A stretch of 64,000 nucleotides of DNA, from assembly GCF_036507355.1 (NCBI RefSeq), contig NZ_AP027877.1, one strand, 5' to 3'. Position numbers and translations under genes: made by a program. The DNA is from Escherichia coli (lineage in GTDB: Bacteria > Pseudomonadota > Gammaproteobacteria > Enterobacterales > Enterobacteriaceae). Below are positions 41,536 to 42,443 of the stretch, one piece after another. The stretch's first letter is position 1. Each line of letters starts with the position of its first letter. The notes below the pieces were generated by a model. It did no database searches. It was not told the DNA's origin and saw only the letters and a list, made by a program, of their open reading frames with translations.

Positions 41536-42366
41536 CTACGCGGAGCGAGACGCTGTCGCCCCTGCGCGTGGTGGCAGAGCAAATGCCACCAGCGCCGGGA
41601 TGAGATAAATAAACCAGACGGCGACTTCGCTGACGCTCGGCGCTTCCTGATAACCAAAAATCCCTTCCATCAACGTGCCAAACAGCGAGTGAGTTGAGAG
41701 CACCTCGCTCATATCAAAGGCGATTTCCTGAAAGTGGTTCCACAATCCGGCTTCATGAAATGCGCGAATGGCACCTGCAGCCAGTCCTGCGGCGACGAAG
41801 AGAATAAACAGGCTGGTCCATTTAAAAAATGCACCAAGATTGAGGCGAATACCGCCCCAGTAGAGCAGGAAGCCGAGCACCACGGCAGTAGCAAGACCGA
41901 GCATTGCACCCAGCGGCGGCCAGATCCCGACATCTTGTTGAAATGCCGCCAGCAGGAAAAAGACCGACTCCAGGCCTTCCCTTGCAACGGCAAAAAAGAC
42001 CATCATCACCAGCGCCCAGCCATGATGATTTCCACGCTGCAATGCGCTATCGACTGCCTGCTCCAGTTGCACTTTGACGTTGCGCGACACTTTGCGCATC
42101 CAGAAAACCATCCAGGTAAGGATCACCACGGCGATCACCGCCACGATACCTTCAAACAGTTCCTGTTCTTTTTGCGGAAATTCGCCGGTGGTTTCGTTAA
42201 TGAAGATACCCAAGCCCAGGCACAACGCAGCGGCAAGCAACACGCCAATCCACATCACACCAATCCATCGGCCTCGCTGGGTACGCTTAAGATAGCTGGC
42301 AATCAAACTGACAATCAGCGCGGCTTCAAGTCCTTCGCGCAACATAATGAGAAACGGAACAAACAT
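41536..42366 (-). CDS. efeU: ferrous iron permease EfeU (FTR1 family), intact
   Basis: Uninterrupted frame with two REGLE motifs (MLREGLEAA, AVAREGLES); start taken at MFVPFLIM. Confidence 0.85.
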   Translation of the reverse strand: MFVPFLIMLREGLEAALIVSLIASYLKRTQRGRWIGVMWIGVLLAAALCLGLGIFINETTGEFPQKEQELFEGIVAVIAVVILTWMVFWMRKVSRNVKVQLEQAVDSALQRGNHHGWALVMMVFFAVAREGLESVFFLLAAFQQDVGIWPPLGAMLGLATAVVLGFLLYWGGIRLNLGAFFKWTSLFILFVAAGLAAGAIRAFHEAGLWNHFQEIAFDMSEVLSTHSLFGTLMEGIFGYQEAPSVSEVAVWFIYLIPALVAFALPPRAGATASRSA

Positions 42367-42425
42367 GCCACCCACCCTTAAACGTTTTTCTGAGTCAATC
42401 TATGCAAAGAAAAGTAAATCGCAGT

Positions 42426-42443
42426 GATAGCGATTATCATTAC
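42426..42443. promoter_or_regulatory. Fur box upstream of efeU
   Basis: GTAATGATAATCGCTATC on the efeU strand, close to the GATAATGATAATCATTATC consensus. Confidence 0.55.

What the first reader, a model, noticed from the sequence alone, without database searches (positions are those of the whole stretch)
41536..42443. Intact efeU with an upstream Fur box (K-12 carries a frameshifted efeU)
EfeU reads through as ~276 aa with both REGLE iron-binding motifs, so the EfeUOB ferrous uptake system is probably functional here. A near-consensus Fur box (AATGATAATCGCTATC) sits ~60 bp upstream. This marks the window as non-K-12.
Basis: partly seen in the sequence, partly recalled or inferred. Interest (0 to 1): 0.3.

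Follow-up and report, generated by a model that had tools for sequence, protein, structure and literature searches.

The report
Intact efeU iron permease gene
This is the ordinary, intact form of the E. coli efeUOB iron-uptake operon with its known Fur repressor site; only laboratory K-12 strains (and about 7% of complete genomes) carry the broken copy, so nothing here is new.

Summary
efeU lies on the minus strand at 41536-42366 and encodes 276 aa. It has REGLE motifs at residues 10-14 and 129-133, seven hydrophobic segments, and full-length matches to Pfam FTR1 (1.9e-89) and the NCBIfam EfeU equivalog. K-12 MG1655 lacks one G of the GG at CDS nt 106-107 (window 42260-42261), which stops translation after 38 codons; the window keeps that G.

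The Fur box (42426-42444, minus strand) matches the 19-bp consensus at 15 of 19 positions. It is the best site in the 64-kb window and ends 60 nt upstream of the ATG. It is invariant in seven diverse E. coli strains, while the sequence just upstream of it varies.

efeO and efeB follow and are intact, with the expected signal sequence and catalytic residues. EfeU is identical to an O157:H7 protein.

All of this is published (Grosse 2006; Cao 2007; Fur pan-regulon 2023). The exact K-12 allele occurs in only 368 of 5379 matching complete genomes, so "non-K-12" is true but weakly informative. Stronger non-K-12 markers are about 2.3% divergence and a 2.5-kb accessory island between efeU and putP.

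Verdict: already known, low interest.

The parts
41536..42366 (-). efeU coding sequence, 276 aa, Ftr1-type inner-membrane iron permease
   Evidence: ORF. Pfam FTR1 1.9e-89 over residues 1-275; NCBIfam EfeU equivalog NF041756, 331.8 bits against a cutoff of 255. Identical to EfeU of O157:H7 TR01 and one residue (E221A) from O157:H7 86-24 and repaired K-12.
42325..42339 (-). First REGLE motif (aa 10-14), in hydrophobic segment 1
41968..41982 (-). Second REGLE motif (aa 129-133), in hydrophobic segment 4
42260..42261 (-). GG dinucleotide (CDS nt 106-107, codon Gly36). K-12 has lost one of these G's; the window has both.
   Evidence: Alignment with NC_000913.3 b4490
42426..42444 (-). Fur box CGTAATGATAATCGCTATC, 15/19 to consensus, at -60 to -78 from the ATG
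   Evidence: Best site in the window, 0.28 expected by chance. Invariant in 7 diverse E. coli strains while the bases immediately upstream vary. efeU is in the core Fur regulon of nine strains (PMC10164565).
42433..42460 (-). Possible sigma-70 promoter TTGTAT-16 nt-GATAAT, with the -10 hexamer inside the Fur box (inferred only)
   Evidence: Read from the sequence. Below the threshold of the consensus scan. Transcription start not determined here.
42404..42418 (+). CpxR-like motif GCAAA-N5-GTAAA between the Fur box and the ATG (weak lead)
   Evidence: One mismatch to GTAAA-N5-GTAAA, but 7 such matches in the window against 4.3 expected, so not above chance by count. Invariant in 7 strains. efeU is listed as a negatively CpxR-regulated gene (PMC9600279).
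40351..41478 (-). efeO, 375 aa, periplasmic cupredoxin + M75 (imelysin) protein, starting 57 nt after efeU
   Evidence: Pfam Cupredoxin_1 and Peptidase_M75; NCBIfam EfeO, 769.9 bits. Same length as K-12, with 5 substitutions.
39074..40345 (-). efeB, 423 aa, Tat-exported DyP-type haem peroxidase, starting 5 nt after efeO
   Evidence: Pfam Dyp_perox_N/C; TIGR01412, 617 bits. SRRRLLKG twin-arginine signal; D235, H329 and R347 present.

Best explanation
The locus is a normal, intact efeUOB operon of a non-K-12 E. coli.

How it works: EfeU is a seven-helix inner-membrane permease of the Ftr1/OFeT family. Its two REGLE motifs, in helices 1 and 4, carry iron across the membrane. It works with the periplasmic cupredoxin/M75 protein EfeO and the Tat-exported haem peroxidase EfeB to take up ferrous iron, mainly under aerobic, acidic, iron-poor conditions.

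How it is controlled: Fe2+-Fur binds the box at -60 to -78, which appears to overlap the -10 hexamer, and shuts the operon off when iron is plentiful. CpxAR adds repression at high pH.

Shown here: gene integrity, family membership, motifs, operon order, the position of the K-12 deletion, and the quality and conservation of the Fur box. Inferred from the literature: transport activity, Fur and CpxR binding, and acid induction.
For: Full-length profile matches above the curated cutoffs for all three proteins. REGLE at aa 10-14 and 129-133, lying in hydrophobic segments 1 and 4 of seven. EfeU is 100% identical to O157:H7 TR01 and 275/276 identical to O157:H7 86-24. EfeB keeps its Tat signal and D235/H329/R347. 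EfeO carries the FHRLE (HxxE) stretch (translation). The K-12 1-bp deletion is absent. The Fur box scores 15/19, is the best site in the window, and is invariant across seven diverse strains.

Literature: MG1655 efeU is non-functional because of a frameshift (PMC2808357). [quoted passage not shown]
Against: Nothing contradicts it. No activity, expression or binding was measured for this sequence. The transcription start is not mapped here, and the proposed -35 hexamer matches the consensus at only 3/6. The CpxR-like motif is not above chance by count. A 2.5-kb AT-rich island begins about 135 bp upstream of the ATG and could in principle alter regulation relative to K-12. O157:H7, in which the system is reported to be functional, carries the same island.
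Confidence: 0.93

Rival explanations
1. The operon is intact, but its main role is to extract iron from haem in the periplasm (EfeB acting as a deferrochelatase), with EfeU importing the released iron, rather than uptake of free Fe2+.
For: NCBIfam and RefSeq name EfeB 'deferrochelatase/peroxidase'. [quoted passage not shown]
Against: Reviews of the primary work describe ferrous-iron uptake, and K-12 shows the EfeB haem phenotype without a working EfeU. The two roles are not mutually exclusive.
Confidence: 0.1
2. EfeU imports Fe3+, not Fe2+. Fe2+ is first oxidised in the periplasm by EfeB and/or EfeO and handed to EfeU as Fe3+, as in yeast Fet3-Ftr1 and Bacillus subtilis EfeUOB.
For: The reviews describe this model for B. 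subtilis, and also describe EfeO-mediated oxidation (PMC3832793; PMC3852070). EfeO has a cupredoxin domain and EfeB is a peroxidase.
Against: This refines the mechanism rather than offering a different identity. It cannot be resolved from sequence.
Confidence: 0.4
3. The genes are intact but the system is silent or defective in this strain, because of missense changes or because the neighbouring AT-rich island alters promoter activity.
For: EfeO and EfeB differ from the K-12 and O157 proteins at 4-5 positions each. An island of 30-34% GC begins at about -135.
Against: EfeU is identical to an O157:H7 protein. The substitutions are conservative and lie outside the motifs checked. The promoter from -78 to the ATG is identical to K-12 and O157. 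O157:H7 has the same island.
Confidence: 0.04
4. The Fur-box match is a chance AT-rich sequence with no regulatory role.
For: It has four mismatches to the 19-bp consensus, and about 0.28 sites of this quality are expected somewhere in 64 kb.
Against: It lies within 80 bp of an iron-transporter start codon and is invariant where the neighbouring bases vary. efeU is Fur-bound and Fur-regulated in nine E. coli strains.
Confidence: 0.02

Closest known systems
EfeUOB (YcdNOB) of E. coli O157:H7 (Cao et al. 2007, Mol Microbiol 65:857) and EfeU of E. coli Nissle 1917 (Grosse et al. 2006, Mol Microbiol 62:120)
   Same: Same gene order and same protein lengths. EfeU is 275-276/276 identical. Same REGLE motifs, and the same promoter, Fur box and 5' leader.
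   Different: Only a few conservative substitutions in EfeO (4) and EfeB (5) relative to O157:H7 86-24.
efeU pseudogene b4490 of E. coli K-12 MG1655
   Same: 97.6% identical DNA over efeUOB, and an identical Fur box and leader.
   Different: K-12 lacks one G at CDS nt 106-107 and terminates after 38 codons. K-12 also lacks the 2549-bp island upstream.
Yeast Ftr1p / Fet3p oxidase-dependent iron permease (OFeT family, Pfam PF03239)
   Same: Same permease family, with two REXXE motifs in transmembrane helices and a partner redox protein.
   Different: The bacterial partners are a cupredoxin/M75 protein and a DyP peroxidase, not a multicopper oxidase.

Membership tests
EfeU / Ftr1 (OFeT) iron permease | Full-length match to the family profile above the curated cutoff | tested here: met
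   Pfam FTR1 300.2 bits (cutoff 25.3), residues 1-275 on profile positions 1-283/284. NCBIfam EfeU equivalog 331.8 bits (cutoff 255). TIGR00145 351.8 bits (cutoff 303.8).
EfeU / Ftr1 (OFeT) iron permease | Two REXXE (REGLE) motifs inside transmembrane helices | tested here: met
   REGLE at aa 10-14 and 129-133, inside hydrophobic segments 5-23 and 119-137.
EfeU / Ftr1 (OFeT) iron permease | Seven transmembrane helices | tested here: met
   Kyte-Doolittle scan with a 19-residue window gives seven separate hydrophobic segments. This is a coarse method; topology was not determined.
EfeU / Ftr1 (OFeT) iron permease | Iron transport activity | not testable with these tools
   Known for the near-identical O157:H7 and Nissle proteins from the literature only.
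EfeUOB tripartite operon | efeU followed by intact efeO (cupredoxin + M75) and efeB (Tat-exported DyP peroxidase) on the same strand | tested here: met
   Intergenic gaps of 57 and 5 nt. Equivalog-level matches. Twin-arginine signal and D235/H329/R347 present in EfeB.
Fur regulon promoter | Sequence close to the 19-bp Fur consensus in the promoter region | tested here: met
   15/19 match at -60 to -78. It is the best site in the window, with 0.28 expected by chance, and is invariant in 7 strains.
Fur regulon promoter | Box overlaps the core promoter | tested here: inconclusive
   A GATAAT hexamer lies inside the box, with TTGTAT 16 nt upstream, but the consensus scan did not report a promoter there and no transcription start is mapped.
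Fur regulon promoter | Fur binding and iron-dependent repression | not testable with these tools
   Reported for efeU in nine other E. coli strains (PMC10164565).
K-12 cryptic efeU allele | Single-G deletion at CDS nt 106-107 | tested here: not met
   The window has GG at 42260-42261 and K-12 has G. The exact K-12 60-mer occurs in 368 of 5379 matching genomes.

The most novel reading that the evidence does not exclude
The 2.5-kb accessory island abuts the efeU promoter at about -135. It consists of about 1 kb of 30-34% GC non-coding DNA plus a 447-aa protein of unknown function with three repeats. It is present in about 12% of complete E. coli genomes and is more diverged than its flanks. It might change efeUOB regulation (for example through H-NS silencing), or it might encode a new DNA-binding regulator. 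Nothing found here supports either idea beyond the adjacency.
Probability: 0.04. Interest if true: 0.3.

Novelty: already known. Interest (0 to 1): 0.05.

Why it matters
It matters little. It confirms that this strain has the usual working-looking copy of a well-characterised low-pH ferrous iron uptake system, and that the window is not from a K-12 laboratory strain. The one practical point is for annotation: the K-12 reference is the exception, so an intact efeU should not be flagged as unusual.

Tried and rejected
The primary papers (Cao 2007, Grosse 2006) are not held in the library, so published facts are cited through reviews and later papers that summarise them.

The consensus promoter scan found no sigma-70 site upstream of efeU. 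The promoter proposed here is read by eye and marked as inferred.

The CpxR consensus search gave 7 matches against 4.3 expected, so the motif upstream of efeU is not significant by count.

Rfam found nothing in 38500-47200. No solved structure is related to EfeU by sequence.

For the 447-aa island protein, the Pfam, NCBIfam and PDB searches were empty or insignificant, and PHROGs gave only unknown-function families. The repeat search of the island showed only the protein's internal 186-nt repeat.

I considered that the GG-to-G deletion might be a recurrent hotspot, because a Nissle-like genome (EcN_Sk) carries it. It is the only genome with the deletion in that sequence background, so an isolated event or an assembly error is the more likely explanation.

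I did not run the large protein or genome-collection scans, because the answer did not depend on them.

Full report
**Observation**

The region 41536-42443 was read on both strands. On the minus strand an ORF runs from an ATG at 42366 to a stop at 41536-41538, which is 831 nt or 276 aa. A TAAGGGTGG ribosome-binding stretch precedes the ATG. The mechanical ORF list extends the ORF to a GTG at 42375, but RefSeq annotates the ATG in homologues.

The protein carries REGLE at residues 10-14 and 129-133. Both motifs lie in hydrophobic segments, the first and fourth of seven.

In the 19-bp frame (42426-42444) it matches GATAATGATAATCATTATC at 15 of 19 positions. It is the only site of that quality on either strand of the 64-kb window. 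Simulated sequence with the same dinucleotide make-up gives 0.28 such sites per window.

**Identity**

- The protein matches Pfam FTR1 over its whole length (1.9e-89). It also matches the NCBIfam EfeU equivalog model at 331.8 bits against a cutoff of 255.
- Immediately downstream on the same strand are efeO (40351-41478, 375 aa, cupredoxin + M75/imelysin) and efeB (39074-40345, 423 aa, DyP peroxidase). Both give equivalog-level matches.
- The gaps between the genes are 57 nt and 5 nt.
- EfeB has the SRRRLLKG twin-arginine signal and residues D235, H329 and R347.
- EfeO has a signal-like N-terminus and the FHRLE (HxxE) stretch.
- EfeU is 100% identical to the protein of O157:H7 strain TR01. It differs by one residue (E221A) from O157:H7 86-24 and from K-12 efeU repaired in silico.
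- EfeO and EfeB each differ from the K-12 and O157 proteins at 4-5 positions.

**The K-12 frameshift**

MG1655 efeU is annotated as pseudogene b4490 and is 830 nt long. Alignment shows that one G is missing from the GG at CDS nt 106-107 (codon Gly36, window 42260-42261). The K-12 reading frame becomes ...RWIV* and ends just after the first transmembrane segment. The window has both G's.

The K-12 60-mer spanning the deletion is found exactly in 368 of 5379 matching complete E. coli genomes. The 40 listed were essentially all K-12 laboratory derivatives. An intact efeU is therefore the norm, and its presence excludes only a small, laboratory-biased fraction of strains.

**Regulatory region**

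Homology with K-12 continues upstream of efeU to window ~42500, about 135 bp from the ATG. I aligned seven diverse E. coli promoters: the window, K-12, O157:H7 TR01 and four strains chosen for low identity. All but one position (a C/A difference at window 42392) from G42443, the second base of the 19-bp Fur-box frame, down to the ATG is invariant. Substitutions accumulate immediately upstream of the box. This pattern fits constraint on the box and the leader.

A GATAAT hexamer lies inside the box, and TTGTAT lies 16 nt upstream of it. Fur would then occlude the -10. This promoter is read by eye, falls below the consensus scan threshold, and has no mapped start.

A CpxR-like GCAAA-N5-GTAAA sits at 42404-42418, between the box and the ATG. 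Such one-mismatch matches occur 7 times in the window against 4.3 expected, so it is only a lead.

**Literature**

The primary papers are not held, but later papers summarise them.

- MG1655 efeU is non-functional because of a frameshift, citing Grosse et al. 2006 (PMC2808357).
[quoted passage not shown] It is analogous to yeast Ftr1-Fet3 (PMC3832793; PMC3852070).
- The title of Cao et al. 2007 states that the system is cryptic in K-12 but functional in O157:H7.
- efeU is one of 36 genes in the core Fur regulon defined by ChIP-exo and expression in nine strains (PMC10164565).
- efeU is listed among negatively CpxR-regulated genes (PMC9600279).

**Mechanism**

The sequence shows an intact permease with both REGLE motifs, intact periplasmic partners, and a conserved Fur box.

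The rest is inferred from established knowledge of the family. Fe2+ is handled in the periplasm by EfeB and EfeO, possibly with oxidation to Fe3+, and is passed through EfeU. Fe2+-Fur represses transcription when iron is plentiful, and CpxAR represses it at high pH.

Two questions cannot be settled from sequence: whether the transported species is Fe2+ or Fe3+, and how much the EfeB haem deferrochelatase activity contributes.

**Context and lineage**

The window is E. coli, but it is not closely matched by any of the 5,426 complete genomes. The best match is 98.3% over 12 kb around efeU and 99.1% over the first 25 kb, and the nearest relatives include O55:H7 and O157:H7. A draft assembly (GCA_016660925.1) and one sequencing run are 99.96% identical over 7.1 kb.

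Between efeU and putP the window has 2549 bp (42501-45049) where K-12 has about 406 bp. This is a far stronger non-K-12 marker than the efeU allele.

**Verdict**

The finding is already known, and interest is low.

Noticed in passing
window 42501-45049: A 2549-bp accessory island lies between the efeU promoter and putP, replacing about 406 bp of K-12 spacer. It has about 1 kb of 30-34% GC non-coding DNA and one ORF. It is present in 645 of 5426 complete E. coli genomes (O157:H7, O55:H7, O145 and others). It is only 93-97.6% identical to those copies, so it is more diverged than the flanking core genes.
   Followed up: partly
window 43559-44902 (+): A 447-aa ORF inside the island is annotated 'hypothetical protein' in all the RefSeq records listed or inspected. 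It has no Pfam, NCBIfam or PDB match, and hits only unknown-function PHROGs (phrog_11707 1.4e-19; phrog_10109 2.2e-13). The C-terminal half has three ~62-aa (186-nt) repeats whose '...TARNYLK..G' stretches look like helix-turn-helix motifs by eye. It differs at 28 of 447 residues from the O157:H7 86-24 copy.
   Followed up: partly
L010:3637-4466 (NZ_CP172017.1, strain EcN_Sk): This Nissle-like genome carries exactly the same GG-to-G deletion at efeU nt 106 as K-12 and is annotated 'frameshifted'. It is the only genome with the deletion in that sequence background among the complete genomes. It is either an independent recurrence of the K-12 mutation or an assembly error.
   Followed up: partly
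window 1-25000: Some stretch of this part of the window matches many places per genome (median 25, up to 68, including plasmids). This suggests an insertion sequence or another dispersed repeat within it. It was not located.
   Followed up: no
whole window: No complete E. coli genome in the collection is closer than about 98.3-99.1% to the window, and the nearest relatives are of the O55:H7/O157:H7 type. A draft assembly, GCA_016660925.1, is 99.96% identical over 7.1 kb, so the lineage exists publicly only as drafts.
   Followed up: partly
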